Shown: positions 2,737 to 53,342 of the stretch, piece after piece
Layout: the number at the start of each line of letters is the position of its first letter
Numbering within the stretch: the stretch's first letter is position 1
DNA from: Candidatus Parcubacteria bacterium
Lineage (GTDB): Bacteria; Patescibacteriota; Minisyncoccia; Phycocordibacterales; UBA5272
NCBI GenBank assembly: GCA_039796775.1
Contig: JBDKJD010000005.1
Span: 1-53,342 of the forward strand
Direction: 5' to 3'
DNA length: 53,342 nt
The notes under the pieces: generated by a model
What the model saw: only the letters and a program-made list of their open reading frames with translations
What the model was told of the DNA's origin: nothing
The model's database searches: none
Made by a program: the position numbers and the translations under genes

Positions 2737-2810
2737 GTGGTATATGGTAACAGATCTAAATTCTACTTCAAGACTAGACAGTCTGATTAGTACGTGTGAG
2801 ATTCTTGTCC

Positions 2811-2845
2811 ACTAGTAACTATTAACCATTGACTATAAACTAAGA
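2811..2845 (+). repeat. Five heptamers (actagta actatta accattg actataa actaaga) ending 5 nt before the gap ATG
   Basis: Direct reading shows TAG or TAA in four of the five units (accattg has none). There is no AGGAG-like SD between the tract and the start codon. Confidence 0.65.
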
Positions 2846-2850
2846 AATAT

Positions 2851-3969
2851 ATGGACAAAAAAATTCGCGTAGGTATTAATGGTTTTGGGCGCATAGGAAG
2901 AGCTTTTTTTAAGATTGCGTATGACAATCCTAATCTAGAAGTGGTCGCCGTGAATGACCTTGGAGATATACATAATCTCGCATATCTCCTCCAGTATGAC
3001 ACAGTATATAGAGTGTCACATTTTGATGTTCATCCAGAAGTGAATGAGACAAGTGCTGGATTCTCTCCTGATGTTGGTGGTATTCCTGCTAAAACTGAAC
3101 AGTATCTTCTCACGGAGGGTCATGATGGTGAACGACGTATTAGAGTATTTCAAGAGAAAGATCCAAGTGCTATCCCTTGGGGCACACTCGATGTCGATGT
3201 GGTGATTGAGTCCACTGGGCTCTTTGTTACTTATGACAAGGCAGCAGCTCATTTGAAGGGGGGAGCTAAGCATGTGGTCATATCTGCTCCAGCCAAGAAA
3301 GGAGAAGATGAGTCTGTTAAAGGTGAGACCATCCTCATGGCTATCAATGAAGAAAAGTTCGGCACATGCCAAGTGACTTCAAATGCATCATGTACTACTA
3401 ACGCTTCATCTCCTGTTATTGCTATTTTGGATGAAGCTATTGGTATTGATAAAGCTATCCTAAACACAGTACATTCATATACTGCGTCACAATCAATTGT
3501 TGATGGACCAAACAAAAAAGATTTTCGTGAGGGACGTGCTGCTGCACAGAATATCGTACCATCTTCAACAGGAGCTGCGATTGCTGTCACCAAAGCATTC
3601 CCTTCACTTGAAGGACTCTTTGATGGTGTATCTATTCGTGTACCTACTCCTGCTGGGTCTATTGCTGATATTACGTTTATTGCTAAGCGAGAGACTACAA
3701 AAGATGAAGTCAATGAGATATTGCGTCAAGCTGCTCAAACTGAGAGATGGGGTGGAATATTCCAAGCAACAGATGAGGAGCTTGTATCGAGTGATATTAT
3801 CGGACTCCCATACGCGTCTATTGCTGATCTTAAGATGACTCGAGTTGTCGGAGGTAATCTTGTGAAGATACTCGCTTGGTATGACAATGAGATGGGGTAC
3901 ACTAACACACTTGTTGAACACGCTATTAAAGCAGGAAGAGCTATTCAGACAATAGACAATAGACAATAG
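2851..3969 (+). CDS. gap: Glyceraldehyde-3-phosphate dehydrogenase
   Basis: NAD-binding motif INGFGRIGR, active-site motif SNASCTTN, and C-terminal WYDNEMGY. There is an extra loop after residue ~55. The last codons (TIDNRQ*) are encoded by the ACAATAG array. Confidence 0.9.
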   Translation: MDKKIRVGINGFGRIGRAFFKIAYDNPNLEVVAVNDLGDIHNLAYLLQYDTVYRVSHFDVHPEVNETSAGFSPDVGGIPAKTEQYLLTEGHDGERRIRVFQEKDPSAIPWGTLDVDVVIESTGLFVTYDKAAAHLKGGAKHVVISAPAKKGEDESVKGETILMAINEEKFGTCQVTSNASCTTNASSPVIAILDEAIGIDKAILNTVHSYTASQSIVDGPNKKDFREGRAAAQNIVPSSTGAAIAVTKAFPSLEGLFDGVSIRVPTPAGSIADITFIAKRETTKDEVNEILRQAAQTERWGGIFQATDEELVSSDIIGLPYASIADLKMTRVVGGNLVKILAWYDNEMGYTNTLVEHAIKAGRAIQTIDNRQ

Positions 3970-3996
3970 ACAATAGACAATAGACAACAGATACAG
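3949..3996 (+). repeat. (ACAATAG)x5 plus two degenerate units, containing the gap stop codon
   Basis: A perfect tandem heptamer runs 3949-3983, followed by acaacag and atacag. The gap TAG at 3967-3969 lies inside it. Confidence 0.9.
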
Positions 3997-4011
3997 ATTC
4001 ATTATACATCT

Positions 4012-4368
4012 ATGGCTTCGTATAAAGATTTAATCGTTTGGCAAAAGTCTTACGAGTTAAGTATCTTGATTTATGCCATCACTAAGAAGTTTCCTAAGGA
4101 AGAAATTTTTGGTTTAACTTCTCAAATGAGAAGAGCAGCGGTGTCTATCCCTTCTAATGTAGCAGAAGGAAACATAAGATTTGGCAAAAAAGAAAATGCG
4201 CAGTTTTTAAAAATTGCTTACGGTTCTGCTGCTGAATTAGAAACCCAACTTTTAATTTCTAAAGATTTGGGCTATGTGATAGAAAAAGATTATACTATAG
4301 CAGTGAGTCTCTTAAATGAAGTCATGAAAATACTTTATACTTTATTGGTCCGTGTACCTAATGTCTAA
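4012..4368 (+). CDS. Four-helix-bundle protein (23S rRNA intervening-sequence protein / Avd-like family)
   Basis: Family hallmarks are YKDLIVWQKSYEL, IPSNVAEG and GSAAELETQL, and the 118-aa length fits. Confidence 0.8.
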   Translation: MASYKDLIVWQKSYELSILIYAITKKFPKEEIFGLTSQMRRAAVSIPSNVAEGNIRFGKKENAQFLKIAYGSAAELETQLLISKDLGYVIEKDYTIAVSLLNEVMKILYTLLVRVPNV

Positions 4369-4389
4369 TATCTTATGTCTATTGTCTAT
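4362..4389 (-). repeat. Inverted copy of the ATAGACA heptamer array (tgtctaa tatctta tgtctat tgtctat)
   Basis: TGTCTAT is the reverse complement of ATAGACA, a cyclic permutation of the 3949-3996 unit. The tract spans the four-helix-bundle gene stop and the rpiB start (ATG 4375). Confidence 0.8.
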
Positions 4390-4845
4390 TTAGCTACTGA
4401 TCACGCAGGGTTTAATTTAAAAGAAGAAGTAAAGGCTTACTTAGAAGAAAAAGGGCAGGAGGTCTATGACTGCGGGGCTCTCACTTTTGAGTCAGGAGAT
4501 GATTACCCGCATTTTATTTCTCTTGCAGCAGAAAAGGTGCAACATGATTCCATGCATGAACCATCTATGGCTGTAATCTTCGGTGGATCAGGTCAAGGAG
4601 AAGCTATCATGGCTAATCGTTATCGTCATGTAAGAGCTATCGTGTATGCCGGAGGGAATCTTGAGTTGATCAAATTAGGTCGCGAACACAATGATGCGAA
4701 CGTGCTATCAATCGGTGCGCGCTTCGTAGAGAAGAATGAGGCGATACAAGCGCTTGAATTATTTTTGTCTACACCATTTTCACATGAGGAGCGACACTCA
4801 GAGCGTGTTATACAGATTGATGAAATAAGTAAGCATATTGTATAA
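4375..4845 (+). CDS. rpiB: Ribose-5-phosphate isomerase B (RpiB/LacA/LacB family)
   Basis: N-terminal ATDHAGFNLKE, with GSGQGEAIMANR typical of the family. Confidence 0.85.
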   Translation: MSIVYLATDHAGFNLKEEVKAYLEEKGQEVYDCGALTFESGDDYPHFISLAAEKVQHDSMHEPSMAVIFGGSGQGEAIMANRYRHVRAIVYAGGNLELIKLGREHNDANVLSIGARFVEKNEAIQALELFLSTPFSHEERHSERVIQIDEISKHIV

Positions 4846-5127: not shown

Positions 5128-5787
5128 ATGTTCATTACTCCAGCTATCTTTCCACATTCATTTCATCATTTGCATGAATTATTGTTCAAGACAGAAGGTG
5201 TCACAAAGAGAGTGCAGATTGATTTGTGTGACGGCGTTATTGGTCTTGAGAGAACATGGCTCCCATATAAAGAAACTCATTTACCTGATGGGTTCGAATA
5301 TGAGTTCGATCTCATGATTAAAGATTGGGTTAAATTTTTAAAGAGAGCGCTGTCGCTTGGAGCTAAGCGAGTCATACTTCATATTGATGCTTGGGAAGGG
5401 CATGATTTTTTGATGTTGCAAGAAATAATGTCTCATCATAAACATGTGAGCGTTGGTTTTTCTATATCCAATGATTCTCCGATTGATAATTTTATTGAAA
5501 GAGTGTTGATAGAACGACGGAATTTTAATAATGTATTTGTGCAGGTTATGGGTATACGCCATATAGGAGCACAAGGACAAGCGTTCGACGACAGAGTTCT
5601 TTTTGTTATAGAGAAGATTAAACGACGTATGCCTGATATTAGTGTTCAAGTAGATGGTGCGATGAATAACAGTACTATTTTTTTGGTGAAGCGATCAGGG
5701 GCCGATACTGCTGTCGTTGGTTCAGCGATATATGGGGAGTCTAATATACGAAAAGCATATGAAGAGATACTTGAGTCTTCTTCATAA
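5128..5787 (+). CDS. rpe: Ribulose-phosphate 3-epimerase family protein (divergent)
   Basis: A TIM-barrel pattern fits: ITPAIF, QIDLCDG, VDGAMN and GADTAVVGSAIY. The gene sits between rpiB and tkt. Confidence 0.6.
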   Translation: MFITPAIFPHSFHHLHELLFKTEGVTKRVQIDLCDGVIGLERTWLPYKETHLPDGFEYEFDLMIKDWVKFLKRALSLGAKRVILHIDAWEGHDFLMLQEIMSHHKHVSVGFSISNDSPIDNFIERVLIERRNFNNVFVQVMGIRHIGAQGQAFDDRVLFVIEKIKRRMPDISVQVDGAMNNSTIFLVKRSGADTAVVGSAIYGESNIRKAYEEILESSS

Positions 5788-5850
5788 GATAGTCTCATAA
5801 GCTTCGACTATCCTCTACCTACTATAGAGTCTTCGCTGTATACTACGTGC

Positions 5851-6720
5851 ATGTATCCACTTACAGATGTAGAAGTACAAGCATTAACATTGCGAGCAGA
5901 AGATATCAGAGAGAGCATTATTAAGATGCTTACTGAAGCTGGGAGCGGTCATACAGCGGGACCGCTTGGTATGACTGATATATTCACTGCGCTCTATTTT
6001 AGATTTCTGAATCATAATCCACGTCATCCTGATTGGGTTCAGCGAGATAGGGTGATTCTCTCTAATGGTCATATCGCCCCAGTATTATATGCGACCATGG
6101 CTCATGCGGGGTACTTTTCTATTTCGGAGTTGAAGACACTTCGCAAGTTTGGTTCACGTCTCCAGGGGCACCCACACAGAGGGACACTTCCTGGTATTGA
6201 GACATCATCTGGCCCTCTTGGATCCGGGCTCTCACAAGCAATTGGTATGGCGCTTATGGATAGATTAGAACATCACAAACCAGACAGATATTTTTATTGT
6301 TGTATGGGGGATGGTGAGATCAATGAAGGACAAGTGTGGGAATCTTTTCTTCTTCTTAATAAATACAAATTAAACAAAGTGATATCAATCATCGATCGTA
6401 ATACTATTCAGATAGATGGATACACCGAAGATGTTCTACCGCTTGAGTCTCTCAAAGATAAAATGGAAGCATTTAATTTTCATGTGATAGAAATTGACGG
6501 TCACAACTTCCGTGACATCGGTACAGCGATAGGTAAAGCTAAGAGTACATTAGATAGACCAACTATCATTATCGCTCACACTATTCCAGGTAAGGGGGTT
6601 ACTCAATTTGAAGGTGATTATAGATGGCATGGCAAGTCTCCTAATAAAGAAGAGGCTAAGATGGCACTCAAAGAATTAAGAACGATGCGAGGAAAAGTTC
6701 TGCATTCAGAGATCGACTAA
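5851..6720 (+). CDS. tkt: Transketolase, N-terminal (thiamine-diphosphate binding) subunit
   Basis: Motifs GSGHTAGPLG, SNGH and GDGEINEGQVWE. This is a split-type transketolase. Confidence 0.9.
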   Translation: MYPLTDVEVQALTLRAEDIRESIIKMLTEAGSGHTAGPLGMTDIFTALYFRFLNHNPRHPDWVQRDRVILSNGHIAPVLYATMAHAGYFSISELKTLRKFGSRLQGHPHRGTLPGIETSSGPLGSGLSQAIGMALMDRLEHHKPDRYFYCCMGDGEINEGQVWESFLLLNKYKLNKVISIIDRNTIQIDGYTEDVLPLESLKDKMEAFNFHVIEIDGHNFRDIGTAIGKAKSTLDRPTIIIAHTIPGKGVTQFEGDYRWHGKSPNKEEAKMALKELRTMRGKVLHSEID

Positions 6721-6744
6721 CTTTTTATTGATATTAAGATTTAT

Positions 6745-7731
6745 ATGATACGAAAAACATTATTCACCCAACAAGAAGAAAGCAAAGCTACACGAGAAGG
6801 CTTTGGAGAAGGCTTGCTCTCAATTGGTCAAAAAGATTCTCGAGTCGTCGCGCTCTGTGCTGACTTAACTGAAAGTGTAAAGATGGATTCTTTCAGAAAT
6901 GCTTTTCCTGAAAGATTTTTTGAAGTTGGTATCACAGAACAAGCAATGTCAGGAGTTGCGTCCGGGATGGCTGCTATGGGGTATATTCCATTCATCGCTA
7001 GTTATGCGATGTTTAGTCCGGGACGTAATTGGGAACAGATACGAACGACTATTTGTTATAACAACATGCCAGTGAAGATAGTCGGGGCACATGCTGGGGT
7101 CTCAGTAGGGCCAGATGGTGCCACCCATCAAGCGATAGAAGATATCGCTATTATGAGAATGCTTCCTAATATGGAAGTGTATGTTCCTTGTGATGCTACA
7201 GAAGCCAAAGCTATTACAGAATATATCGCGACGAGTAATAAACCTGCGTATCTAAGATTAACAAGAGAAAAAACTCCTCTTATGGTGTTAGATAATTATG
7301 TGTGGCAACATGGCAAAATGTATAGCTTGTACACATCGCTTAATAAAAGCGGTGGAGATTATATGTATAATGTGGCTCTCATTGGCTCTGGTCCGATTCT
7401 CTATGAAGCTCTAAAAGCAGCGCCTCAATTAGAAAAGGAGGGAGTAGGAGTTCGAGTCATTAATGTTCCGCAGATCAAACCGCTCGATGTGGGAGGATTA
7501 TTGAGAATCGCCAAAGATGTTAAAGCAATTGTCACGGTAGAAGAGCATCAGATAGCGGGAGGGTTAGGAGGCTCGATAGCTGAATATTTAAGCGAGCACC
7601 ACCCTCTACGTATTGGTCGTATTGGTATACATGATAGATTCGGGCAAAGTGGAAAAGGGTTAGAATTATATGAAGAATACGGTCTCACCGCAAAACATAT
7701 TGTACAAAAAGTGAGAGAGACGTTGCACTAG
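6745..7731 (+). CDS. tkt: Transketolase, C-terminal (pyrimidine-binding) subunit
   Basis: Motifs GITEQAMSGVASG and GPDGATHQAIEDIA. It immediately follows the N-terminal subunit. Confidence 0.9.
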   Translation: MIRKTLFTQQEESKATREGFGEGLLSIGQKDSRVVALCADLTESVKMDSFRNAFPERFFEVGITEQAMSGVASGMAAMGYIPFIASYAMFSPGRNWEQIRTTICYNNMPVKIVGAHAGVSVGPDGATHQAIEDIAIMRMLPNMEVYVPCDATEAKAITEYIATSNKPAYLRLTREKTPLMVLDNYVWQHGKMYSLYTSLNKSGGDYMYNVALIGSGPILYEALKAAPQLEKEGVGVRVINVPQIKPLDVGGLLRIAKDVKAIVTVEEHQIAGGLGGSIAEYLSEHHPLRIGRIGIHDRFGQSGKGLELYEEYGLTAKHIVQKVRETLH

Positions 7732-10684: not shown

Positions 10685-10719
10685 ATAACTATTAACCAGT
10701 AACTATTAACTAGTAACTA
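10685..10719 (+). repeat. Five heptamers (ataacta ttaacca gtaacta ttaacta gtaacta) ending 2 nt before the malic enzyme ATG
   Basis: Direct reading shows TAA in every unit and no SD. Confidence 0.75.
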
Positions 10720-10721
10720 AT

Positions 10722-11870
10722 ATGTCACACGATTACAACCAAGAAGCATTAGCTTTACACAAGACACATCACGGTAAAATTGAATTACACACCAAAGTTC
10801 CTATGGAGAATCGCGACGATCTTTCTCGAGCATATAGCCCAGGAGTAGCAGAAGTGTGTAAAGAAATTGCTAAAGATGTTAATAACGCTCGTGAGTATAC
10901 ACTTAAGCGTAATACTGTTGCGATAGTGTCCGATGGTTCAGCGATACTTGGACTCGGTAATTTAGGTGCCCATGCTGCTATTCCTGTGATGGAAGGGAAG
11001 GCTGCGATACTTAAGTCATTTGCAGATGTTGATGCATTTCCGATATGTTTAGATACTCAAGACATAGAAGAAATTATAAAAGCAGTGAAGCAGATTGCTC
11101 CTGTGTTCGGAGCGGTGAACCTAGAAGATATTGCAGCACCAAAGTGTTTTGAAATAGAAGAGAGACTGCGTCGCGAACTCCCTATTCCTGTAATGCATGA
11201 TGATCAGTGGGGGACAGCAACTGTTGTTCTCGGAGGACTTATTAACGCACTCAAAGTGACAAGTCGAGAAGGAAGAGAGGATATCAAGATTGTAGTGAAC
11301 GGTGTCGGTTCAGCAGGCGTTGCTGTTTCTAGACTTCTTCTTGCTTCAGGGTATACCAACATTCTTTTCTGTGACACAAAAGGAATTATTTTTGAAGGGC
11401 GAGGGGATGAGATGAATAAAGAAAAGAAAGAGCTTGTATCAAAAAGCATCGCTCAAGGATTCAGTGGAACCCTTGCTGATGCTGTTAAAGAAGCAGACGT
11501 GTTCATTGGTGTTTCTAAAGCAGGCGCACTTACCAAAGAAATGGCAGAGAGTATGAATGAAGATGCTATCGTGTTCGCACTCGCCAACCCAGTCCCTGAG
11601 ATTATGCCTGACGTTGCTAAAGAAGCAGGTGTGGCAGTTATTGCGACTGGACGTAGTGATTATCCTAATCAGCTCAATAACTCACTCATCTTCCCAGGGT
11701 TATTTAAAGGTATGCTTGATAATAATATCAAGCAATTCGAAACAGAGATGTTCGTACGCGCCGCGCATGCACTTGCCTCTCATGTAAAAGACCTTTCTCC
11801 AGAGAATATTTTACCTACAATGTTTGACAAGGAGCTTGTCGATGTCATTGCGTCATCGGTTACACAATAA
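10722..11870 (+). CDS. NAD(P)-dependent malic enzyme (short form)
   Basis: Motifs YSPGVAEVC, VSDGSAILGLGN, NLEDI and GVGSAGVA. Confidence 0.9.
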   Translation: MSHDYNQEALALHKTHHGKIELHTKVPMENRDDLSRAYSPGVAEVCKEIAKDVNNAREYTLKRNTVAIVSDGSAILGLGNLGAHAAIPVMEGKAAILKSFADVDAFPICLDTQDIEEIIKAVKQIAPVFGAVNLEDIAAPKCFEIEERLRRELPIPVMHDDQWGTATVVLGGLINALKVTSREGREDIKIVVNGVGSAGVAVSRLLLASGYTNILFCDTKGIIFEGRGDEMNKEKKELVSKSIAQGFSGTLADAVKEADVFIGVSKAGALTKEMAESMNEDAIVFALANPVPEIMPDVAKEAGVAVIATGRSDYPNQLNNSLIFPGLFKGMLDNNIKQFETEMFVRAAHALASHVKDLSPENILPTMFDKELVDVIASSVTQ

Positions 11871-18239: not shown

Positions 18240-18291
18240 AGGGTAGAATTAGGGAGCAGAATGTAGAGCGTAGAGTATAGAGTATAGAAAA
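18237..18291 (+). repeat. TAGARNN-type heptamer tract beginning at the uvrB stop codon
   Basis: The tract reads tagaggg tagaatt ... tagagcg tagagta tagagta tagaaaa. Confidence 0.7.
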
Positions 18292-18416
18292 TACAAAATG
18301 CGAAATAGAAAGAACGTATGATATTTATATAAAATAAAATATTTATCAGTCAATATTGCCACTAGATATATTTCATGATTTTGCATGATTTTTTAGGAAG
18401 CGTATACTAAAAGGGT

Positions 18417-19270: not shown

Positions 19271-20302
19271 ATGAAAAAGAGGGTATTTGTAGGCATGTCA
19301 GGCGGAGTGGACTCCTCAGTGTCAGCGCTTTTGCTTAAGCGAGCGGGGTATGATGTCACTGGAGTGTTTATTAAAGTATGGCAACCAGACTTCATAGAGT
19401 GTACCTGGAAAGAAGACAGATTAGATGCGATGCGAGTCGCTGCGCATTTGGATATTCCTTTTGTTACACTGGATCTCGAAAAGGAATACAAAGAAGGAGT
19501 AATTGACTATATGATTAGTGAGTATAAAAGTGGCAGAACTCCTAATCCAGATGTGATGTGTAACCGCGAAGTGAAGTTCGGTGCTTTTTATACATGGGCC
19601 AAGTCACAAGGGGCAGACTATGTAGCTACGGGGCACTATGCAGAGCATAATGGAGAGACTCTTGTTAAGAGTAAAGATGAGAACAAAGACCAGACATACT
19701 TCCTTTGGGCTGTATCAAAAGAAGTTATTCCACAGATACTTTTTCCTGTTGGGGGGATTGAAAAGACCGAGGTGCGTACGATAGCAGCAGAGGTCAATCT
19801 TCCTGTTGCGTACAAGAAAGATAGTCAAGGATTATGTTTCGTCGGGACTATTGATATTAAGACTTTGCTTAAGGGGTATATAGAAGAGAAGAGGGGTGAT
19901 GTGATGAATGAAGAGGGGGAAGTAATTGGGTATCACGAAGGGGTTACGTTTTATACCATCGGTGAACGGCACGGTTTTGTGATTACAAAAAAGGGAGACG
20001 ACGAGAAACCATATTTTGTAATAGCAAAAGATTTTGATAAGAACACACTCACCGTATCTCATACCAAAAAAGAAGAAGCATATGGAAGTAGTATTAGTCT
20101 CACATCGTGTAATTGGACTAGTGATATTGTGGAGGGGAAGGTGTACGATGCACGTGCTCGCTATAGAGCACCTCTAGCTAAAGTTAAGGCCTTGTCGTCC
20201 TCTACATTTGAAGTTGTTGAAGGAGATATAGTTGCAGTGAGCGGACAGTCTCTTGTTGTGTATGATGGTGAGAAGTGCATAGGAGGGGGGGTAATTGTTT
20301 AG
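19271..20302 (+). CDS. mnmA: tRNA 2-thiouridine(34) synthase
   Basis: PP-loop motif GMSGGVDSS, with KDQTYFL. The start is trimmed to MKKRVFVG. Confidence 0.9.
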   Translation: MKKRVFVGMSGGVDSSVSALLLKRAGYDVTGVFIKVWQPDFIECTWKEDRLDAMRVAAHLDIPFVTLDLEKEYKEGVIDYMISEYKSGRTPNPDVMCNREVKFGAFYTWAKSQGADYVATGHYAEHNGETLVKSKDENKDQTYFLWAVSKEVIPQILFPVGGIEKTEVRTIAAEVNLPVAYKKDSQGLCFVGTIDIKTLLKGYIEEKRGDVMNEEGEVIGYHEGVTFYTIGERHGFVITKKGDDEKPYFVIAKDFDKNTLTVSHTKKEEAYGSSISLTSCNWTSDIVEGKVYDARARYRAPLAKVKALSSSTFEVVEGDIVAVSGQSLVVYDGEKCIGGGVIV

Positions 20303-20329
20303 AACATAGAACATAGAGCGTGTAGAATC
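20300..20329 (+). repeat. TAGAACA-type heptamer tract beginning at the mnmA stop
   Basis: The tract reads tagaaca tagaaca tagagcg tg tagaatc. Confidence 0.7.
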
Positions 20330-27316: not shown

Positions 27317-27359
27317 ATAACAAAATCCATCAAAGAAATTCTTTGATGGATTTTGTTAT
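27317..27359. terminator. Long perfect inverted repeat (21-nt arms) between convergent genes
   Basis: ataacaaaatccatcaaagaa a ttctttgatggattttgttat. Confidence 0.75.
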
Positions 27360-29911: not shown

Positions 29912-29939
29912 ACAAACTATCAACCATTAACTAATAACT
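29912..29939 (+). repeat. Heptamer tract (acaaact atcaacc attaact aataact) in the atpE leader
   Basis: Direct reading. It ends 8 nt before the ATG at 29948. Confidence 0.6.
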
Positions 29940-29947
29940 GAATTTAT

Positions 29948-30166
29948 ATGACTCCAGAAGCTGCAATTTATATCGCAAAAGGAATGTGTATCTTAGCAAT
30001 GCTCGGTACCGCTATCGGTCAAGGGTATCTCGTAGGTAAGACTATGGAAGCGATTGGTCGCAACCCAGATATTGAAGGATCTATCTTCTCTAAGATGATT
30101 ATCGCAATCGCGATGACAGAAACTACAGCGATCTTCGCTCTCGTAGCATTTTTCCTCCTCAAGTAA
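29948..30166 (+). CDS. atpE: F-type ATP synthase subunit c
   Basis: A 72-aa hairpin with GRNPD in the loop and a conserved Glu (MTETTAIF). Confidence 0.9.
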   Translation: MTPEAAIYIAKGMCILAMLGTAIGQGYLVGKTMEAIGRNPDIEGSIFSKMIIAIAMTETTAIFALVAFFLLK

Positions 30167-30169
30167 CAG

Positions 30170-30228
30170 CCGTTAGCCTTTGGCTTTTAGTGTTTAGCTA
30201 ATAGTCAAATGCTAAAAGCTAAATGCTT
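30170..30228. repeat. Degenerate GCTAAAA-family heptamer tract containing both orientations
   Basis: The tract reads gttagcc tttggcttttag tgtttagctaatag ... gctaaaagctaaatgc. TAG or TAA spacing is 7 nt within the runs. Confidence 0.55.
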
Positions 30229-30236
30229 TTATCGTT

Positions 30237-33546: not shown

Positions 33547-34968
<1,422 letters not shown>

Positions 34969-34971
<3 letters not shown>

Positions 34972-35035
34972 TTACTAATCGCTAGTTTGTAGTCTTACAC
35001 TCTAGTAACCAGTAACTCGTAATCAATAACTAGTC
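34969..35035 (+). repeat. Stop-rich heptamer tract filling the whole atpD-atpC spacer
   Basis: The tract reads tagttactaatcgctagtttgtagtc...tctagtaaccagtaactcgtaatcaataactagtc, followed directly by ATG. TAA recurs every 7 nt from 35006 to 35027. Confidence 0.7.
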
Positions 35036-35452: not shown

Positions 35453-35497
35453 AGATAGAATACAGAGCGTAGAACATAGAACGTAGAGTATAGTAAT
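35450..35497 (+). repeat. TAGARNN heptamer tract beginning at the atpC stop
   Basis: It reads tagaga tagaatacagagcg, then tagaaca tagaacg tagagta tagtaat. TAG occurs at 35470, 35477, 35484 and 35491. Confidence 0.75.
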
Positions 35498-35522: not shown

Positions 35523-35577
35523 CAACATAAAAATACAAGAGCGAAGGCGTAGCCTTCGCTCTTGTATTTTTATGTTG
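35523..35577. terminator. Long hairpin (26 bp) between atpC (+) and uppP (-)
   Basis: caacataaaaatacaagagcgaaggc gta gccttcgctcttgtatttttatgttg. Confidence 0.8.
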
Positions 35578-36424: not shown

Positions 36425-36469
36425 ATATAAAACTAAAGTATAGCATGATGCTATACTTTAGTTTTATAT
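36425..36469. promoter_or_regulatory. 45-nt perfect palindrome (22-nt arms, 1-nt centre) in the uppP/PAP2 divergent region
   Basis: atataaaactaaagtatagcat g atgctatactttagttttatat. The right arm runs into the PAP2 ATG (36468). Confidence 0.5.
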
Positions 36470-36938: not shown

Positions 36939-36973
36939 ACATAAAGAGCAAGAGCTCTGTGTTACACTCATAA

Positions 36974-37008
36974 AAAAGCTAAAAGCCAAAAGCTAATAGC
37001 TAATAGCT
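36974..37008 (+). repeat. (AAWAGCY)x5 heptamer array ending 4 nt before the smc ATG
   Basis: The array reads aaaagct aaaagcc aaaagct aatagct aatagct. Confidence 0.85.
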
Positions 37009-37012
37009 ATTC

Positions 37013-39262
37013 ATGCATCTCTCACACATTACTCTTAATGGTTTCAAATCGTTTGCCAAGAAGACAACACTTGATGTTACGCATCAAGTGACTGGTGTTG
37101 TTGGACCAAATGGTAGCGGAAAGTCAAATATCGCAGAAGCGATACGGTTCGTACTCGGAGAGCAGTCAATGAAGAGTATGCGTTCAAAGTCAGGAAGTGA
37201 TGTTATTTTCAAAGGTTCAGAACATTTATCGCCTATGTCACGCGCAACAGTCACTATGGTGATAGACAATAGGGATAAAAGTAGACTCTCTGTTTCTCAT
37301 GCAAGTGGTGACCTCGCCCCTTATCTTGTGTATGATGAACTCACGCTTTCTCGCACTATTTATGCAGATGGTGGAAGCGAATACACATTAAATGGTGCGA
37401 AGGTGAGATTAAAAGACGTTCAGGAATTACTTTCTTTTGCTGGTATTGGAGGAAGTGCTCATACTATTATCAATCAAGGAGAAGCTGACAAGATACTTCT
37501 CGCTAACCCTAAAGAGAGAAAGGAAGCGCTCGAAGATGCGCTTGGGCTCAGGGTCTTTCATCTTCGATTAAACGAGAGTAGTCGTAAGTTAGAGAAAGTC
37601 AAAACTCATGTCAAAGAAGTGGAAGCTCTCAGAAGAGAAGTTAAGCCTCATCTTTCTCACTTAGAACGTCAGGTTAAAAAGATCGAACAAGGTGAAGAAG
37701 AAAGAAAAAAATTATCTGGGTATTTGTCGGTCTATTTAAAACGAGAAGAAAAAGAAATAGACAATAAGAAAAGGGAGATGTATGAAAGAGGAACAGCTAA
37801 CTCTCTTCATCTCGTAGAAGAAACAATAAAAAAAGAGTTACTACTTCTGAGTGAGCAAAAAGATGTTTCTACCAAAGAAGAAAAAGAGAGAAAGATAGAA
37901 GCAGAGAAAGAGAGACTCTTAGCTGAGAAGTCACTTGATGAAGAGAAATTACGAGAAGTAACTAAGAGTTTAGGAAGATTAGAAGCAGAGGTTAGTTTTT
38001 TGGAGCGTGAACTCAAGCGAGAAGTCGAAGTGTCTAGCGTATCGATAGAACAGAATATTCTCGTCACAACCAAGACTGCAATACATGACAAAATTGGAAC
38101 AGCGATACGCTTTATCTCTTCCAAAGAGTATCAAAAAGGAGAAGATACACTCAACCTCTTATCACAAGATGCTGATGCTTTTTTTGACGCATATATTTAT
38201 AATGACGATAAGCGTAAGACTGAGTTAGAAGAAGAAATACAAACAATAAAACATCAAATCATCACACTTGAAAAGGATGCGAGAGAGTTAAGCGGAAACG
38301 TTAAAGCTTTGTCTGACAGTATCGATATTGTGGTTGGGTCTATGAGTAGTGTCCTCGTCTCTCACCATGAAGAAGAGAAGAAGAAGGTGCTTCTAGAGAG
38401 TAAGTTGCGAGAGCTTTCTAGTGAGATTAGGTTAAGAGAGCAAGAAGAAAGAGAATTAGAAGAGAGGTCGGCATCGTTTGAAGCATTGCTCGAAGAGGGT
38501 ATCTTAATTGTAGGCAGAACAATGGCCGAGTATAGAGAGCTTGTAGATGATACAGAGAACACTCTTCTGTCTCAGCATGATTTGCGTCGAGCTATTGAGC
38601 GTTCCAAGTTGCGTATTGAAGAAGCCAGTCTTCCTAACAAAGATGAGATTGTTAAAGAGTATGAGACCACCAAAGAGAGAGATATATATCTTGAGAAAGA
38701 GTTGCTCGATATACAAGAAACAGAAAAGAAGCTATTACTCTTGATCGAAGAATTAACAGGTACATTACATGATAAGTTCTTGTCAGGAATAGAAGAGATA
38801 TCAAACATCTTCTCATCATTTTTTGGAGAAATATATCATGGAGGCAAAGCGTCGCTCACAAAAGTCACCCGTAAAAGAATAAATGAATTAGGTGAAGAGG
38901 AGGTAGAAGAAGGAATCGACTTAGATGTGAGCTTGCCGAATAAGAAAGTGAAAGAGCTTGCTATGTTCTCAGGTGGTGAGCGAGCACTCGTATCGATCGC
39001 GCTACTCTTCGCGATGTCGCAAGTCACACCACCACCGTTTATGGTGCTCGATGAGACAGATGCGCCACTTGATGAGTCTAATGCTAGGAAGTACGGTGCG
39101 ATGATGAGGAGGCTCGCAGAGAAGAGTAAGCTTCTTGTGATTACACACAACCGTGAGACCATGAATCACTGCGATATGCTTTATGGGGTGACACTTGGTG
39201 TTGAGGGTGGGTCTAAGCTCCTCTCTGTTAATTTAAAAGACGCAGAAGGGTATACGAAGTAG
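37013..39262 (+). CDS. smc: SMC-family chromosome segregation ATPase, short form without recognisable hinge
   Basis: The N-terminus reads ITLNGFKSFAKK...GPNGSGKSNIAEAIRFVLGEQS and the C-terminus FSGGERALVSIALLFA...MVLDETDAPLD. It is only 749 aa, and the middle is all charged coiled-coil-like sequence. Confidence 0.8.
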   Translation: MHLSHITLNGFKSFAKKTTLDVTHQVTGVVGPNGSGKSNIAEAIRFVLGEQSMKSMRSKSGSDVIFKGSEHLSPMSRATVTMVIDNRDKSRLSVSHASGDLAPYLVYDELTLSRTIYADGGSEYTLNGAKVRLKDVQELLSFAGIGGSAHTIINQGEADKILLANPKERKEALEDALGLRVFHLRLNESSRKLEKVKTHVKEVEALRREVKPHLSHLERQVKKIEQGEEERKKLSGYLSVYLKREEKEIDNKKREMYERGTANSLHLVEETIKKELLLLSEQKDVSTKEEKERKIEAEKERLLAEKSLDEEKLREVTKSLGRLEAEVSFLERELKREVEVSSVSIEQNILVTTKTAIHDKIGTAIRFISSKEYQKGEDTLNLLSQDADAFFDAYIYNDDKRKTELEEEIQTIKHQIITLEKDARELSGNVKALSDSIDIVVGSMSSVLVSHHEEEKKKVLLESKLRELSSEIRLREQEERELEERSASFEALLEEGILIVGRTMAEYRELVDDTENTLLSQHDLRRAIERSKLRIEEASLPNKDEIVKEYETTKERDIYLEKELLDIQETEKKLLLLIEELTGTLHDKFLSGIEEISNIFSSFFGEIYHGGKASLTKVTRKRINELGEEEVEEGIDLDVSLPNKKVKELAMFSGGERALVSIALLFAMSQVTPPPFMVLDETDAPLDESNARKYGAMMRRLAEKSKLLVITHNRETMNHCDMLYGVTLGVEGGSKLLSVNLKDAEGYTK

Positions 39263-47696: not shown

Positions 47697-48044
47697 ATGA
47701 AAGATCAAGAATTTGTTGAATATGTAGTAAAAGCATTAGTAGATAATCCAGATGGAGTTAAGGTAGATAGACGAGTTGATGAAATGGGGGTGCTCATTAC
47801 ACTTGATGTGACAGCGGCAGATATGGGAAAGGTTATCGGTCGTGATGGTGCTACAGCTAAGGCATTACGTACACTTCTTCGTGTTGTTGGTATGAAGAAT
47901 AACGCTCGTGTGAATCTTAAGATCAATGAACCAGAGGGAAGAGCTCGTACTTCTGGAGAGGAGAATGCAGCACCTACTGATCACTTTGCTCGTTATGATA
48001 CGACAGATGTAGATGCCGTGATGAACGACCTGAAAAGCCTCTAG
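47697..48044 (+). CDS. KH-domain RNA-binding protein (YlqC/UPF0109-like) with C-terminal extension
   Basis: It has a GKVIGRDGATAKALRTL GXXG motif and the usual position after rpsP. Confidence 0.8.
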   Translation: MKDQEFVEYVVKALVDNPDGVKVDRRVDEMGVLITLDVTAADMGKVIGRDGATAKALRTLLRVVGMKNNARVNLKINEPEGRARTSGEENAAPTDHFARYDTTDVDAVMNDLKSL

Positions 48045-48140
48045 CTTTTAGCAGTTTGCTTTTAGCTAACAAAAGCGCCTGTGGCGCTTTTGTTGTATTT
48101 GGAAGCCAAAGGCTCATAGCTAAGAGCCAAAAGCTGTGTT
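48045..48140. repeat. GCTAAAA-family heptamer tracts in inverted orientation flanking a terminator hairpin
   Basis: The left tract is agcttttagcagtttgcttttagct (minus sense). The right tract is agccaaaggctcatagctaagagccaaaagct (plus sense). Confidence 0.65.
48071..48091 (+). terminator. Rho-independent terminator between the KH gene and trmD
   Basis: aaaagcgcc tgt ggcgctttt. Confidence 0.75.
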
Positions 48141-48152
48141 AGTATTTTGTTA

Positions 48153-48872
48153 ATGAAACAAGCACCGCTTAGATTCCACATTGTAACTATTTTCCCCGAT
48201 ATGTTCGTCAGCTATTTTGCTGAGTCGATTATTTCCCGCGCAATTGAGAATAAGCTAATAGAAGTGAAGACCTATGCGCTGCGTGAATATACGAATGATA
48301 AGCACAGGAGAGTGGACGGTAAGCCGTACGGTGGTGGACCAGGTATGGTGATGTGGGTAGATCCAATCATTAACTGCGTAGAAACTATTAAAAAAAAGAT
48401 AGAATCTAAGAATAAAAAGCTAAAGGCTAATAGCCAAAAGCTAAAAGCTTTGATTGTTATCTTTAACGCTGGTGGGGAAAAGTTTACCAATACGCTTGCG
48501 CAAAAGTCTGCAAAAGGATACACGGATATTATGTTTATTTGTGGTCGCTATGAGGGGGTTGACTCTCGTGTGAAGAAAATTTTGAAAGCCAAAGAGTGGA
48601 GTATTGGGGACTATGTTTTGACAGGTGGCGAGCTTCCAGCTATGGTCTGTATTGATGCAATATCGCGACAGGTAAAAGGGGTGCTCCATGACGAGCTTTC
48701 TCTAGAAGAGAAGCGTGTAGCGTCCCATGAGATATATGCGCGTCCTGAGGTGTATGAGACTGGAGGTAAGAAATATCGTGTGCCTAAGGTGCTACTCTCT
48801 GGTAATCATAAACTCATTGAAGAGTATCGAATGAAAAAAGAAAATACGATAGGAAAGAAGAAAGTTAAATAG
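48153..48872 (+). CDS. trmD: tRNA (guanine37-N1)-methyltransferase
   Basis: Motifs IVTIFPDMF, GGGPGMVM, CGRYEGVD and LTGGELPA. The start is taken at the ATG rather than the upstream TTG. An inserted Lys-rich loop is encoded by a heptamer array. Confidence 0.9.
   Translation: MKQAPLRFHIVTIFPDMFVSYFAESIISRAIENKLIEVKTYALREYTNDKHRRVDGKPYGGGPGMVMWVDPIINCVETIKKKIESKNKKLKANSQKLKALIVIFNAGGEKFTNTLAQKSAKGYTDIMFICGRYEGVDSRVKKILKAKEWSIGDYVLTGGELPAMVCIDAISRQVKGVLHDELSLEEKRVASHEIYARPEVYETGGKKYRVPKVLLSGNHKLIEEYRMKKENTIGKKKVK
48415..48449 (+). repeat. (AAWRGCY)x5 heptamer array inside the trmD coding sequence
   Basis: The array reads aaaagct aaaggct aatagcc aaaagct aaaagct. It is almost identical to the smc leader array at 36974-37008. 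It is read in the one frame without stops, giving KKLKANSQKLKA. Confidence 0.85.
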
Positions 48873-50400: not shown

Positions 50401-50556
50401 ATTTTAATTTAAACTGTAATCTAAATTAGTCAGAGTAGTTTGGTTGATAAGGTGTTTTTCCTATAACAAATAGAGCCTAAGTCCCATCTTCGTTTGTTGT
50501 TTTTACACCCCCCCATTCTATTTACGCTATCCCACTAAAAGCGTACACTATTCTCT

Positions 50557-50593
<37 letters not shown>

Positions 50594-50597
50594 CCCT

Positions 50598-52244: not shown

Positions 52245-53129
52245 ATGGAAGAGAATCTTGATAAAGAAATTCTTGATCTGGAGAGAGAGATGAATGCCAT
52301 AGATTTCTGGCAGGATAAAGAAAAGGCTCAGGCAGTTATCAAGAAAATTAAAGAATTGAAGGATAAGAAGGAAGGAGTTGGAGCGTTGGATAAAGGCGGG
52401 GCTATTATGTCTATCTTGGCTGGGGCTGGTGGGGACGACAGTGAGGACTTTGCTCGGATACTTCTTGAGATGTATATGAAGTATTGTGACAGACATGGAT
52501 ATACATACACGTTTCTTCATGATAACAGAAACGATCATGGTGGATATCGTAACCTCACAATTGAGATAGAAGGGAAGAATGTATACGGTAACCTAAAGAA
52601 TGAGTCTGGTGTTCATCGCCTTGTGCGCGTATCACCCTTTAACGCTCAAGCAAAGCGTCATACATCGTTTGCTCTTGTTGAAGTGCTCCCGATTATTCCG
52701 CACGCCGAGAGAAAAGCTTTATTGACAGATGAGATACGAATAGAGACATCGAAGGCGAGCGGTCCAGGAGGCCAGAACGTTAACAAGCGCGAGACTGCGG
52801 TACGTGTCGTGCATATTCCTACCAATATCGCAGTGCATGTAGCGACAGAGAGAGAGCAAGAGCGTAATAAACAAAAAGCGTTAGATATTTTGCAATCAAA
52901 ACTCTTCGCGCTTGATGAAGAAAAAAGAAAAGCAGAGATAGAGGGAAGACAAATTAGCAAAACGACAGAGATAGAGTGGGGTAATCAGATACGCTCATAT
53001 GTTCTTCATCCGTATAAGATGGTGAAGGATCATAGAACTGACTATGAGACGAGTAATGTTGAAGCAGTCCTTGAGAAAGGGGAGATAGAGGAGTTTATTA
53101 GAATGCAGAATGTAGAATATAGAGCATAG
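52245..53129 (+). CDS. prfB: Peptide chain release factor 2, short form without programmed frameshift
   Basis: It has the SPF tripeptide (VSPFNAQ) and GGQ (SGPGGQNVNK). It is 294 aa, and the alignment begins where canonical RF2 resumes after its frameshift site. Confidence 0.85.
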   Translation: MEENLDKEILDLEREMNAIDFWQDKEKAQAVIKKIKELKDKKEGVGALDKGGAIMSILAGAGGDDSEDFARILLEMYMKYCDRHGYTYTFLHDNRNDHGGYRNLTIEIEGKNVYGNLKNESGVHRLVRVSPFNAQAKRHTSFALVEVLPIIPHAERKALLTDEIRIETSKASGPGGQNVNKRETAVRVVHIPTNIAVHVATEREQERNKQKALDILQSKLFALDEEKRKAEIEGRQISKTTEIEWGNQIRSYVLHPYKMVKDHRTDYETSNVEAVLEKGEIEEFIRMQNVEYRA

Positions 53130-53147
53130 AATATTAGAGTATAGAAA
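53113..53147 (+). repeat. TAGARNN heptamer tract straddling the prfB stop
   Basis: TAG occurs at 53113, 53120, 53127 (the real stop), 53135 and 53142. Confidence 0.75.
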
Positions 53148-53215: not shown

Positions 53216-53342
53216 CCAGTAACCAGTAACCAGTAACCAGTAACCAGTAACCAGTAACCAGTAACCAGTAACCAGTAACCAGTAACCAGTAACCAGTAAC
53301 CAGTAACCAGTAACCAGTAACCAGTAACCAGTAACCAGTAAC
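53216..53342 (+). repeat. (CCAGTAA)x18 perfect tandem heptamer array running to the window end
   Basis: Direct reading shows 127 nt with no interruption. Confidence 0.95.

What the first reader, a model, noticed from the sequence alone, without database searches (positions are those of the whole stretch)
3949..4389. Four-helix-bundle (23S-IVS / Avd-type) gene bracketed by inverted heptamer arrays inside a sugar-phosphate operon
The 118-aa four-helix-bundle gene (4012..4368) sits between gap and rpiB. On its left is (ACAATAG)x5 plus degenerate units at 3949-3996, which also supplies the last gap codons and its stop. On its right is the reverse-complement array (tgtctaa tatctta tgtctat tgtctat, 4362-4389), which supplies the rpiB start and first codons (MSIVY).

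In RNA the two arrays could pair into a long stem enclosing the ORF. Proteins of this family were first described inside 23S rRNA intervening sequences, which are stem-loops excised by RNase III. The family also includes the DGR accessory protein Avd.

An IVS-like cassette placed in an mRNA operon, using the genome's own heptamer repeats as its stem, is not something I know to be described. It could act as an RNase III processing site that separates the gap and rpiB transcripts. It could also be the footprint of a small mobile cassette.
Basis: partly seen in the sequence, partly recalled or inferred. Interest (0 to 1): 0.7.

Follow-up and report, generated by a model that had tools for sequence, protein, structure and literature searches.

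The report
IVS-type hairpin gene cassette in an operon

Summary
A 118-aa PF05635/TIGR02436 gene (4012-4368) lies between gap and rpiB. It is flanked by (AGACAAT)x6.4 (3945-3993) and the inverted TGTCTNN array (4358-4390). The arms are 38 nt and 82% complementary, and the predicted fold closes on them (z = -4.7).

It is not a local accident. Nine further distinct loci carrying 4HB proteins 66-92% identical to the window's hold the gene in the same gap|rpiB slot, always between inverted arrays. One has a different unit but a perfect 28-bp complement. The two closest cassette-less relatives end gap in ..VSNV*/..ISNV*, the tail of the 4HB protein, which reads as a deletion scar.

Across 75 independent metagenomic homologues, none in rRNA, 83% have inverted flanks above the 95th percentile of 247 neighbouring genes. 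Arms are about 26 nt, often of period 7, tightly enclose RBS plus ORF, differ in sequence between cassettes, and are co-inherited with the ORF.

The anatomy matches the RNase III-excised Coxiella 23S IVS, which also has GACAGAT heptamers before its ORF. The best reading is an IVS-type cassette living in an mRNA operon, with its stem probably acting in RNA. Processing is untested, and a G:U test gave no support for RNA over DNA. Rating: new variant of a known kind.

The parts
2851..3969 (+). gap (glyceraldehyde-3-phosphate dehydrogenase). Its last 7 codons and stop (3946-3969) are written in the left heptamer array.
   Evidence: PF00044 + PF02800; ORF list; sequence
3945..3993 (+). Left arm: tandem heptamers AGACAAT x5, then AGACAAC AGATAC (6.4 units).
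   Evidence: TRF 3947-3991, 97% matches; pattern search 10 hits vs 0.72 expected; period-7 scan
3994..4011 (+). 18-nt spacer between the left arm and the ATG, where a ribosome-binding site would lie. No Shine-Dalgarno motif is visible.
   Evidence: Sequence; the family-wide median distance from left arm to ATG is 18 nt
4012..4368 (+). Four-helix-bundle gene (118 aa, PF05635 / TIGR02436). It fills the loop of the hairpin.
   Evidence: Pfam 132 bits, NCBIfam TIGR02436 123 bits, DGR Avd model 34 bits (cut-off 80); PDB 2GSC E = 2e-21; dN/dS 0.06-0.24 among the cassette genes at this slot
4353..4390 (+). Right arm: inverted array TGTCTAA TATCTTA TGTCTAT TGTCTAT. It holds the last codons and stop of the 4HB gene and the first five codons of rpiB.
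   Evidence: TRF 4358-4388; inverted-repeat pairs I1-I5
3945..4390 (+). Whole cassette (446 nt): arm, spacer, ORF, arm. The predicted closing stem pairs 3951-3995 with 4353-4395.
   Evidence: RNA fold z = -4.69; 36 closing pairs in the MFE structure; absent as a block from L048, L002, L005, L006
4375..4845 (+). rpiB (ribose-5-phosphate isomerase B). Its start codon lies 16 nt inside the right arm.
   Evidence: PF02502; N-terminus is MS.[VI]Y with the cassette and MKIY without it
5128..7731 (+). Rest of the host operon: rpe (5128-5787), transketolase N half (5851-6720) and C half (6745-7731).
   Evidence: Pfam; called genes in L001; synteny gap-rpiB-rpe-tkt conserved in most of the 80 related loci

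Best explanation
The element at 3945-4390 is an intervening-sequence (IVS) type gene cassette. It has no recognisable promoter of its own. A four-helix-bundle (PF05635) ORF with about 18 nt of leader sits in the loop of a roughly 38-bp stem made of two mutually complementary heptamer arrays. This is the same kind of element as the ORF-bearing IVS of 23S rRNA, but it lives in the spacer of the gap-rpiB-rpe-tkt operon of a Paceibacteria (CPR) bacterium.

**Shown**
- The package (arm, ORF, arm) is inherited as a unit. It has stayed in this slot across a clade while synonymous sites approached or reached saturation.
- It has been lost as a block in some lineages.
- The protein is under purifying selection.
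- The two arms change in sequence but stay complementary.

**Inferred**
- The cassette is transcribed by read-through from the operon.
- In the transcript the arms pair and loop the cassette out. This puts the gap stop codon (19 nt inside the left arm) almost opposite the rpiB start codon (16 nt inside the right arm).
- As in the Coxiella IVS, the stem is a double-stranded RNA substrate for RNase III. Cleavage would release the 4HB message and separate the gap and rpiB messages.
- The cassette is, or was, mobile, by a mechanism that is not visible in the sequence.
For: **Anatomy in the window**

**Same slot in relatives**
- 4HB proteins that are 66-92% identical lie between gap and rpiB in L082, L083, L085, L089, L171-L174 and L176.
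- All have AGACANN-type arrays upstream and TGTCTNN-type arrays downstream.
- L176 has changed units (TTAGAWW) yet keeps a perfect 28-bp complement.
- The window itself has a paired change: GATA in the left arm faces TATC in the right arm (pair I13).

**Constraint**
- dN/dS is 0.06-0.24 with dS 0.7-2.4 (one pair was not computable), so at most of these distances unconstrained flanks would have lost much of their similarity, yet the arms still pair.
- The MFE structure has a closing stem in 10 of 10 distinct cassette loci at this slot.

**Loss**
- L048, L002, L003, L005 and L006 lack the gene.
- L002 gap ends ..ATIVSNV* and L048 gap ends ..SISNV*. The 4HB proteins end RV[SP]NV*. This fits a deletion from the first left-arm unit to the last codons of the ORF.

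**Family-wide**
- In 75 metagenomic homologues the median flank inverted-repeat score is 32. For 247 neighbouring genes the median is 14 and the 95th percentile is 23.7. 83% of the homologues exceed that percentile.
- None of the 80 loci contains rRNA.
- Arms have a median length of 26 nt. They end 18 nt before the ATG and start at the stop codon, giving a loop of 384 nt.
- The upstream gene's stop sits at the outer end of the left arm (median -1 nt). The next gene's start is 10 nt past the right arm. The spacer with the stem closed is 14.5 nt, against 452 nt in linear sequence.

**Arms belong to the cassette**
- Arm similarity rises with protein identity in unrelated contexts (p = 4e-4; examples).
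- In L142 the arms lie within the segment that is absent from the aligned part of the related L115 methyltransferase; in L115 the two cassettes lie inside the host ORF.

**Precedent**
- The Coxiella IVS is 428 nt with a 28-bp terminal stem and an S23p ORF in the loop. It has (GACAGAT)x2-3 plus GACAGAA before the ATG, varying in number between strains.
- RNase III cuts it mid-stem, and the 5' cut is at the first repeat (PMC4990558).
Against: - No transcript data exist for this organism, so pairing in RNA and RNase III cleavage are analogies.
- Mismatches between arms are not enriched for G:U on the sense strand: 40 G:U-type against 68 A:C-type.
- Sense and antisense duplexes are equally stable: 38 loci favour sense and 28 favour antisense, p = 0.63. 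The constraint could therefore act on DNA.
- A mid-stem cut would fall at or next to the rpiB start codon, which could harm a housekeeping gene.
- In Coxiella the excised RNA is short-lived and the ORF appears not to be translated (PMC4990558). Here the ORF is clearly under selection, so the two systems may use the stem differently.
- No RNase III motif was found in the 53-kb window. This is uninformative, because the rest of the genome was not seen.
- No evidence of recent movement was found. One identical protein seen in the 24 contigs that were read was always in the same context.
Confidence: 0.6

Rival explanations
1. The arms act in DNA only. They are the terminal inverted repeats of a non-autonomous mobile cassette, MITE-like or recognised by structure. 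Their complementarity is kept by DNA processes such as template switching or gene conversion between inverted repeats, not by selection on an RNA stem.
For: - There is no G:U bias and no strand difference in stem stability.
- Arms are co-inherited with the ORF in unrelated contexts.
- Two copies that are 86% identical, sharing the CTTCCCA unit, sit at two sites of one host gene.
- Arms lie inside the insertion.
- The whole package shows presence/absence polymorphism.
Against: - Arm sequences differ between cassettes, even among three neighbours on one contig (L161). No sequence-specific transposase could serve them all.
- No recombinase gene or target-site duplication was seen.
- The cassette has been inherited vertically in one slot at near-saturating or saturated synonymous divergence.
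- Arms of 21-31 nt are marginal for homologous gene conversion.
- In the one characterised member, the stem is an RNA substrate (PMC4990558).
Confidence: 0.2
2. The hairpin serves the host operon rather than the cassette. It acts without cleavage as a looping-out or translational-coupling device that keeps the gap stop and the rpiB start adjacent. It could also gate rpiB translation, because the start codon is sequestered until ribosomes finishing gap or the 4HB ORF melt the stem.
For: - In the window the gap stop and the rpiB start lie 19 and 16 nt inside opposite arms.
- Family-wide, closing the stem reduces the stop-to-start distance from 452 nt to 14.5 nt.
- The 4HB stop is only 6 nt from the rpiB ATG.
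- Cassette-less relatives have gap-rpiB spacers that mostly run 10-40 nt.
Against: - This does not explain why the same architecture occurs in rRNA helices and inside ORFs.
- It is purely geometric, with no expression data.
- It is compatible with, rather than exclusive of, the main explanation.
Confidence: 0.12
3. Chance by-product. The genome is full of intergenic heptamer arrays, and two of them with related units happen to lie in opposite orientation on either side of an ordinary small gene.
For: - About 20 period-7 arrays lie in spacers of the window, and TAGAnnn arrays follow several other stop codons.
- Two array hairpins with no gene inside exist at 30164-30231 and 48034-48140.
Against: - The right arm and one arm of each of the two short gene-less hairpins (30164-30231, 48034-48140) are the only arrays seen running opposite to the usual direction in the window, and only the right arm faces its partner across a gene.
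- The pairing is conserved in 10 distinct cassette loci at this slot and in 83% of 75 independent family members, against 5% of control genes.
Confidence: 0.02
4. Invertible switch. Recombination between the inverted arms flips the 4HB gene relative to the operon.
For: Inverted repeats flanking a short segment are the hallmark of invertons.
Against: - All 10 distinct cassette loci at this slot have the same orientation.
- Family-wide co-orientation with neighbours is 86%, against 81% background.
- There is no nearby recombinase.
- The arms overlap coding ends, so inversion would destroy them.
Confidence: 0.02

Closest known systems
ORF-bearing intervening sequence (IVS) of 23S rRNA, as in Coxiella burnetii helix 45 (also Leptospira and others)
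   Same: - Total size: 446 nt here, 428-444 nt in Coxiella.
- Terminal inverted repeats forming a stem: 38 nt at 82% here, 28 bp in Coxiella.
- A PF05635 / S23p ORF fills the loop.
- Tandem heptamers lie just before the ATG with a closely similar unit: GACAGAT in Coxiella, AGACAAC AGATACAGAT here.
- Repeat number varies between strains.
- Distribution among relatives is sporadic.
(PMC4990558.)
   Different: - The host site is an mRNA spacer between two protein genes, not an rRNA helix.
- The arms overlap three coding ends.
- The ORF is under strong purifying selection, whereas it is reported as decaying and untranslated in Coxiella.
- RNase III excision is shown there and untested here.
Avd, the accessory protein of diversity-generating retroelements
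   Same: Homologous four-helix-bundle fold family: PF22296 bAvd 28 bits, PHROG 3206, NF033474 34 bits.
   Different: - The score is below the Avd model's cut-off (34 against 80).
- The neighbours are gap and rpiB, with no reverse transcriptase or template/variable repeat next to it.
Intergenic tandem heptamer repeats of bacteria (TAACTGA repeats of Beggiatoaceae, Cyanobacteria and Bacteroidetes; cyanobacterial STRR)
   Same: - Period 7 and intergenic.
- Often abut start codons or overlap the stop of the upstream gene.
- Units carry stop codons.
(PMC4679880.) The other arrays of the window behave this way.
   Different: - Those repeats are described as direct repeats of one genome-wide unit, with only one inverted case noted.
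- No link to PF05635 genes is described.
- Here two arrays of opposite orientation bracket a gene, and the unit is cassette-specific.
MITEs and other small non-autonomous elements with terminal inverted repeats
   Same: - Compact, with no recombinase gene and inverted ends.
- Presence/absence polymorphism.
- Found in many genomic contexts.
   Different: - The termini are not conserved between copies.
- The ends are tandem arrays.
- It carries a conserved protein gene.
- No target-site duplication was seen.

Membership tests
PF05635 / TIGR02436 four-helix-bundle protein ('23S rRNA intervening-sequence protein') | Profile match above the curated cut-off over the full domain | tested here: met
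   PF05635: 132.4 bits (cut-off 33.8), residues 5-109 of 118. TIGR02436: 122.9 bits (cut-off 24)
PF05635 / TIGR02436 four-helix-bundle protein ('23S rRNA intervening-sequence protein') | Four-helix-bundle fold | tested here: inconclusive
   Only a sequence match to the solved structure 2GSC (E = 2e-21).
23S rRNA intervening sequence (IVS) element | Inserted in a helix of 23S (or 16S) rRNA | tested here: not met
   It lies between gap and rpiB. There is no Rfam family in the window. None of 80 loci with homologues holds rRNA.
23S rRNA intervening sequence (IVS) element | Terminal inverted repeats that form a long stem closing the element | tested here: met
   38-nt arms at 82%, with a 22-nt core at 91%. 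The MFE structure closes on them, z = -4.69.
23S rRNA intervening sequence (IVS) element | S23p / PF05635 ORF in the loop (ORF-bearing subclass) | tested here: met
23S rRNA intervening sequence (IVS) element | Excised from the precursor by RNase III without ligation | not testable with these tools
   This needs RNA end mapping or an in vitro cleavage assay. It has been shown for Coxiella (PMC4990558).
23S rRNA intervening sequence (IVS) element | Sporadic presence among close relatives | tested here: met
   Present in the window, L082, L083, L085, L089, L171-L174 and L176. Absent in L048, L002, L003, L005 and L006.
DGR accessory protein Avd | Match to the Avd equivalog model above its cut-off | tested here: not met
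   NF033474: 34.1 bits, cut-off 80
DGR accessory protein Avd | Adjacent reverse transcriptase and template/variable repeat pair | tested here: not met
   The flanking genes are gap, rpiB, rpe and tkt. No long direct repeat was found around the gene.
MITE-like element with terminal inverted repeats | Terminal sequences conserved among copies of the family | tested here: not met
   Units differ between cassettes, and arm similarity falls to background below about 55-62% protein identity.
MITE-like element with terminal inverted repeats | Target-site duplication at the ends | tested here: inconclusive
   None was obvious at L115, L142 or the gap|rpiB slot. There was no systematic test, and the repeat arrays blur the ends.
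Invertible DNA switch | Both orientations found at one locus | tested here: not met
   10 of 10 distinct cassette loci at this slot have the same orientation.
Intergenic tandem heptamer repeats (TAACTGA / STRR type) | Direct tandem 7-nt units in spacers next to start or stop codons | tested here: met
   This holds for each arm taken alone and for about 20 other arrays of the window. The inverted pairing around a gene is not part of that description (PMC4679880).

The most novel reading that the evidence does not exclude
Genes of the '23S rRNA IVS protein' family may be the cargo of a widespread, undescribed class of compact hairpin cassettes. Each cassette would carry its own pair of co-evolving inverted short-repeat arrays. 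The arrays would loop the cassette out of whatever RNA it lands in: rRNA helices, operon spacers, or even ORFs whose frame stays open, as in L115 and L142. That would make insertion nearly harmless. On this reading the classical rRNA IVS is only the first-noticed special case. Spread might be RNA-mediated, given that the protein is a homologue of the reverse-transcriptase cofactor Avd.
Probability: 0.4. Interest if true: 0.85.

Novelty: new variant of a known kind. Interest (0 to 1): 0.68.

Why it matters
- IVSs and their ORF have been known for more than 25 years without an agreed origin or function (PMC4990558).
- In this sample, family members outside rRNA usually carry the same hairpin anatomy. 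Their arms co-evolve, travel with the ORF, and tightly bracket the ribosome-binding site plus ORF.
- That turns the IVS from an rRNA curiosity into one instance of a general cassette. It also gives many natural 'compensatory mutation' experiments to analyse.
- It links three things usually treated separately: tandem heptamer repeats of bacterial spacers, rRNA IVSs, and Avd-like four-helix-bundle proteins.
- Practically, the arrays break assemblies. Contig L001 starts 54 nt before the gene. They may also explain why the family shows up as 'CRISPR-array associated' in repeat-based screens (PMC10910872; this link is my guess).

Tried and rejected
- **Column-wise covariation on the cassette loci at the gap|rpiB slot.** The pairing register shifts by multiples of 7 between genomes, so the count of structure pairs on an anchored alignment would be meaningless. 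I used within-locus complementarity and unit turnover instead.
- **G:U versus A:C mismatch test and sense/antisense duplex energies.** These were meant to separate RNA from DNA constraint. There was no sense-RNA signal and a slight opposite bias. The level at which the stem acts is left open.
- **Co-orientation with neighbours as evidence for dependence on host transcription.** 86% against 81% background, not significant.
- **Looking for the same protein in several contexts as a sign of recent mobility.** P0057 was in the same context in all 24 contigs read (the index lists it in 95 blocks of the collection).
- **Other 4HB copies.** An HMM search found only one in the window, and only L029 among the gap loci.
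- **Rfam.** Nothing in the window, and one unrelated cobalamin riboswitch in the 80 loci.
- **PADLOC.** No defence-system match.
- **Promoter and terminator scan.** Nothing above shuffles for promoters and no terminator at the arms.
- **RNase III motif search in the window.** None found, which is uninformative.
- **Literature.** Eight full-text searches found no description of PF05635 genes bracketed by inverted tandem arrays outside rRNA. Ralph & McClelland 1993 (PMC47033) is not held.
- **Inverton and chance explanations.** Rejected as given under the rival explanations.
Full report
**1. What is in the window**

- A period-7 array AGACAAT x6.4 occupies 3947-3991. A degenerate array of the reverse-complement unit (TGTCTAA TATCTTA TGTCTAT TGTCTAT) occupies 4358-4388.
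- The double unit ACAATAGACAATAG with up to two mismatches is found 10 times against 0.72 expected.
- The two arrays form 38-nt arms that are 82% complementary, with 357 nt between them. A 22-nt core is 91% complementary. This pair is the longest inverted repeat within 600 nt in the whole window.
- Folding 3930-4410 as RNA gives a structure closed by these arms: -122 kcal/mol, shuffles -97.5 +/- 5.2, z = -4.69.
- The enclosed ORF 4012-4368 is a clear PF05635 / TIGR02436 protein. It is not a DGR Avd by NCBI's model (34 bits against a cut-off of 80).
- The flanking genes are gap and rpiB, followed by rpe and a split transketolase.
- The left array writes the last gap codons and stop. The right arm writes the last codons and stop of the 4HB gene and the first five codons of rpiB.

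**2. Organism and the same slot in relatives**

The best gap matches are uncultured Paceibacteria/Parcubacteria (CPR), and gap-rpiB-rpe-tkt synteny is general there.

All close homologues of the 4HB protein that I could place, from 92% down to 66% identity, lie in the same gap|rpiB slot. These are L082, L083/84, L085-88, L089/90, L171-L178.
- Every one has an AGACANN-type array upstream and a TGTCTNN-type array downstream.
- L176 has drifted to TTAGAWW units, yet its two arms are a perfect 28-bp complement.
- The window shows a paired change of its own: GATA on the left faces TATC on the right (pair I13).
- Among these cassette genes dN/dS is 0.06-0.24, while dS is 0.7-2.4 (one pair was not computable). 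The protein is therefore functional, and for most pairs the comparison is at divergences where unconstrained spacer DNA would have lost much of its similarity. The arms nevertheless still pair.
- The MFE structure has 13-52 closing pairs in all ten distinct cassette loci at this slot, the window included.

**3. Presence and absence**

The closest genomes by gap, rpiB and tkt (L048, L002, then L003, L005, L006) lack the gene. Their gap-rpiB spacers run about 10-140 nt.
- L002 gap ends ..A T I V S N V * and L048 gap ends ..S I S N V *. The 4HB proteins of this clade end R V [S/P] N V *.
- L002 reads ACAATAG (one left-arm unit) followed directly by TT TCT AAC GTG TAG.
- The simplest reading is a deletion from the first left-arm unit to the last codons of the ORF, which fused gap to the 4HB tail.
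- The divergence of the 4HB protein roughly tracks that of rpiB and gap. I therefore infer an ancestral cassette with several independent losses. Re-insertion by recombination of the flanking genes cannot be excluded.

**4. The whole family does this**

A metagenome scan gave 80 loci with homologues at 47-62% identity.
- I scored the best local alignment between the 90 nt upstream of the ATG and the reverse complement of the 90 nt starting 30 nt before the end of the gene.
- The 75 independent 4HB genes have a median score of 32. For 247 other genes on the same contigs and in the window the median is 14 and the 95th percentile is 23.7. 83% of the 4HB genes exceed that percentile.
- 61 of 75 have at least 15 closing pairs in the MFE fold.
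- None of the 80 loci contains rRNA or any other Rfam family at the cassette, and 81 of 82 genes have coding flanks.
- The anatomy is uniform:

| Feature | Value |
|---|---|
| Arm length | median 26 nt (IQR 21.5-31) |
| Left arm end to ATG | 18 nt |
| Right arm start | at the stop codon |
| Loop | 384 nt |

- About 35% of arms are strict period-7 arrays and 4-11% are period 8, against 2.5% of random segments.
- The upstream gene's stop sits at the outer end of the left arm (median -1 nt). The next start is 10 nt beyond the right arm. Closing the stem shortens the stop-to-start distance from 452 nt to 14.5 nt.

**5. The arms belong to the cassette and co-evolve**

- Unit sequences differ from cassette to cassette. 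Three cassettes within 3.3 kb of L161 have three different units.
- Arm similarity between cassettes in unrelated contexts rises with protein identity. The mean is 8.2 at background and 13.3 at 68% identity or more (Mann-Whitney p = 4e-4).
- Examples: L167, L170 and L144 share GGATTCAAG-type units. The two 86%-identical copies in L115 share CTTCCCA.
- In L115 and L142 the cassettes lie inside an Eco57I/MmeI-type methyltransferase ORF. In L142 the arms fall within the segment that has no counterpart in the aligned part of the L115 protein.
- So the unit of inheritance is arm, ORF, arm. The arms diverge much faster than the protein while remaining complementary to each other.

**6. RNA or DNA?**

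I tried two strand-sensitive tests.
- Among 223 mismatched positions in 66 stems, G:U-compatible mismatches on the sense strand number 40 and A:C-type number 68 (p = 0.009, in the wrong direction for a sense RNA stem).
- Duplex energies of sense and antisense arms do not differ: 38 against 28 loci, p = 0.63.
- Co-orientation with neighbours (86%) is not above background (81%).
- These data therefore do not show that the constraint acts on RNA. The A:C excess is unexplained.

**7. Background of the genome**

- The window holds about 20 other period-7 arrays, almost all in spacers.
- Forward arrays abut start codons, and TAGAnnn arrays follow stop codons. The left arm resembles this second class.
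- The right arm is the only array in the window that faces a partner array across a gene. The only other arrays of opposite orientation are the arms of the two short gene-less hairpins described next.
- Two short hairpins made of inverted arrays with no gene inside exist, between atpE and atpF (30164-30231) and upstream of trmD (48034-48140).

**8. What is known**

- IVSs of 23S rRNA are stem-loops removed by RNase III without ligation. Some carry an ORF of this family.
- The Coxiella element is 428 nt with a 28-bp terminal stem and the ORF in the loop. It has (GACAGAT)x2-3 plus GACAGAA just before the ATG, with repeat number varying between strains.
- RNase III cuts it mid-stem, and the 5' cut falls at the first repeat (PMC4990558).
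- The window's left arm ends AGACAAC AGATACAGAT, which is nearly the same unit.
- CPR rRNA insertions are reported to include this ORF (PMC11270868).
- Tandem heptamers next to start codons are described in Beggiatoaceae, Cyanobacteria and Bacteroidetes, without any link to this gene family (PMC4679880).
- Eight full-text searches found no description of the family being bracketed by inverted arrays outside rRNA. That is absence of evidence in an incomplete library.

**9. Most likely mechanism**

- Shown: a discrete, heritable arm-ORF-arm package; a selected protein; selected or maintained complementarity; block loss.
- Inferred by analogy with Coxiella and from geometry: the cassette is transcribed with the operon. 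Its arms pair and loop it out, so the gap stop and the rpiB start face each other. The stem is an RNase III substrate that frees the 4HB message.
- Open points: whether cleavage happens; how rpiB is translated if its start lies in the stem; whether the arms are maintained at the DNA level; how the cassette moves.

**10. Verdict**

- The interpretation as an IVS-like cassette in an mRNA operon is supported by comparative evidence.
- The RNase III step is plausible but untested.
- I rate this a new variant of a known kind, and of above-average interest, because it generalises to most sampled members of a very large and functionally unexplained protein family.

Noticed in passing
L115 21-3995 (cassettes at 421-777 and 2989-3345); L142 40-2613 (cassette at 1205-1567): Three 4HB cassettes, arms included, lie inside Eco57I/MmeI-type N6-methyltransferase ORFs. 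The host reading frame stays open through the whole cassette, in the same relative frame in all three. Chance is about 2.5e-5 for each. In L142 the methyltransferase domain is split by the insert.
   Followed up: partly
window 2810-2836, 10691-10723, 29919-29939, 30206-30228, 33562-33584, 35002-35022, 36972-37013, 50552-50596; and 18262-18306, 20297-20322, 35464-35488, 53098-53130: Period-7 arrays fill many spacers. One class abuts start codons in forward orientation. Another class (TAGAnnn units) directly follows stop codons. This resembles the TAACTGA repeats described in Beggiatoaceae, Cyanobacteria and Bacteroidetes.
   Followed up: partly
window 53216-53342: (CCAGTAA) x18, a perfect array that runs off the end of the window. 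It probably caused the assembly to stop there.
   Followed up: no
window 30164-30231 and 48034-48140: Hairpins built from inverted heptamer arrays with no gene in the loop. One lies between atpE and atpF. The other lies upstream of trmD and encloses a GC-rich stem-loop at about 48070-48096.
   Followed up: partly
window 48415-48449: A heptamer array (AAAAGCT-type) lies in frame inside the trmD gene and encodes KKLKANSQKLKA. It is complementary to the array at 48034-48067, about 350 nt upstream.
   Followed up: partly
L161 180-545, 1761-2135, 2977-3351: Three 4HB cassettes lie in a row within 3.3 kb (31-54% identical proteins). Each has a different arm unit: GCGAGCT-type, GGGTCTG-type and TTAGGGA-type.
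   Followed up: partly
L106, L124, L136, L148 (for example L136 3477-3848 and 3997-5007): In some genomes ordinary genes (CheY-like, CheB-like and others) are also bracketed by inverted arrays, because each spacer carries a hairpin of arrays of one genome-wide unit.
   Followed up: no
L168 4964-5338; L179 3579-4016: Small PD-(D/E)XK (PF13366) genes near 4HB genes also have inverted flanks (scores 34 and 20). This may be a second cargo type for the same kind of cassette, but there are only two cases.
   Followed up: partly
66 cassettes (loci L082-L170 and the window): Mismatches between arms are A:C-type more often than G:U-type on the sense strand (68 against 40, p = 0.009). This is the opposite of what a sense RNA stem predicts. 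Unexplained.
   Followed up: partly
L004 7075-7525: In this relative the gap-rpiB spacer holds a non-coding insert of about 475 nt instead of the 4HB gene. It appears to contain two similar segments of about 60 nt.
   Followed up: no
window 35523-35577, 36425-36469, 27317-27359: Perfect palindromes of 26, 22 and 21 bp with 1-3 nt loops lie in spacers. They are AT-rich and not array-like.
   Followed up: no
L001 (contig of 4610 nt) and several contigs shorter than 2 kb carrying close homologues: Assemblies tend to break at or next to the arrays. L001 starts 54 nt before the 4HB gene. The family is also listed as CRISPR-array-associated in a repeat-based screen (PMC10910872), which might reflect these arrays.
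   Followed up: no
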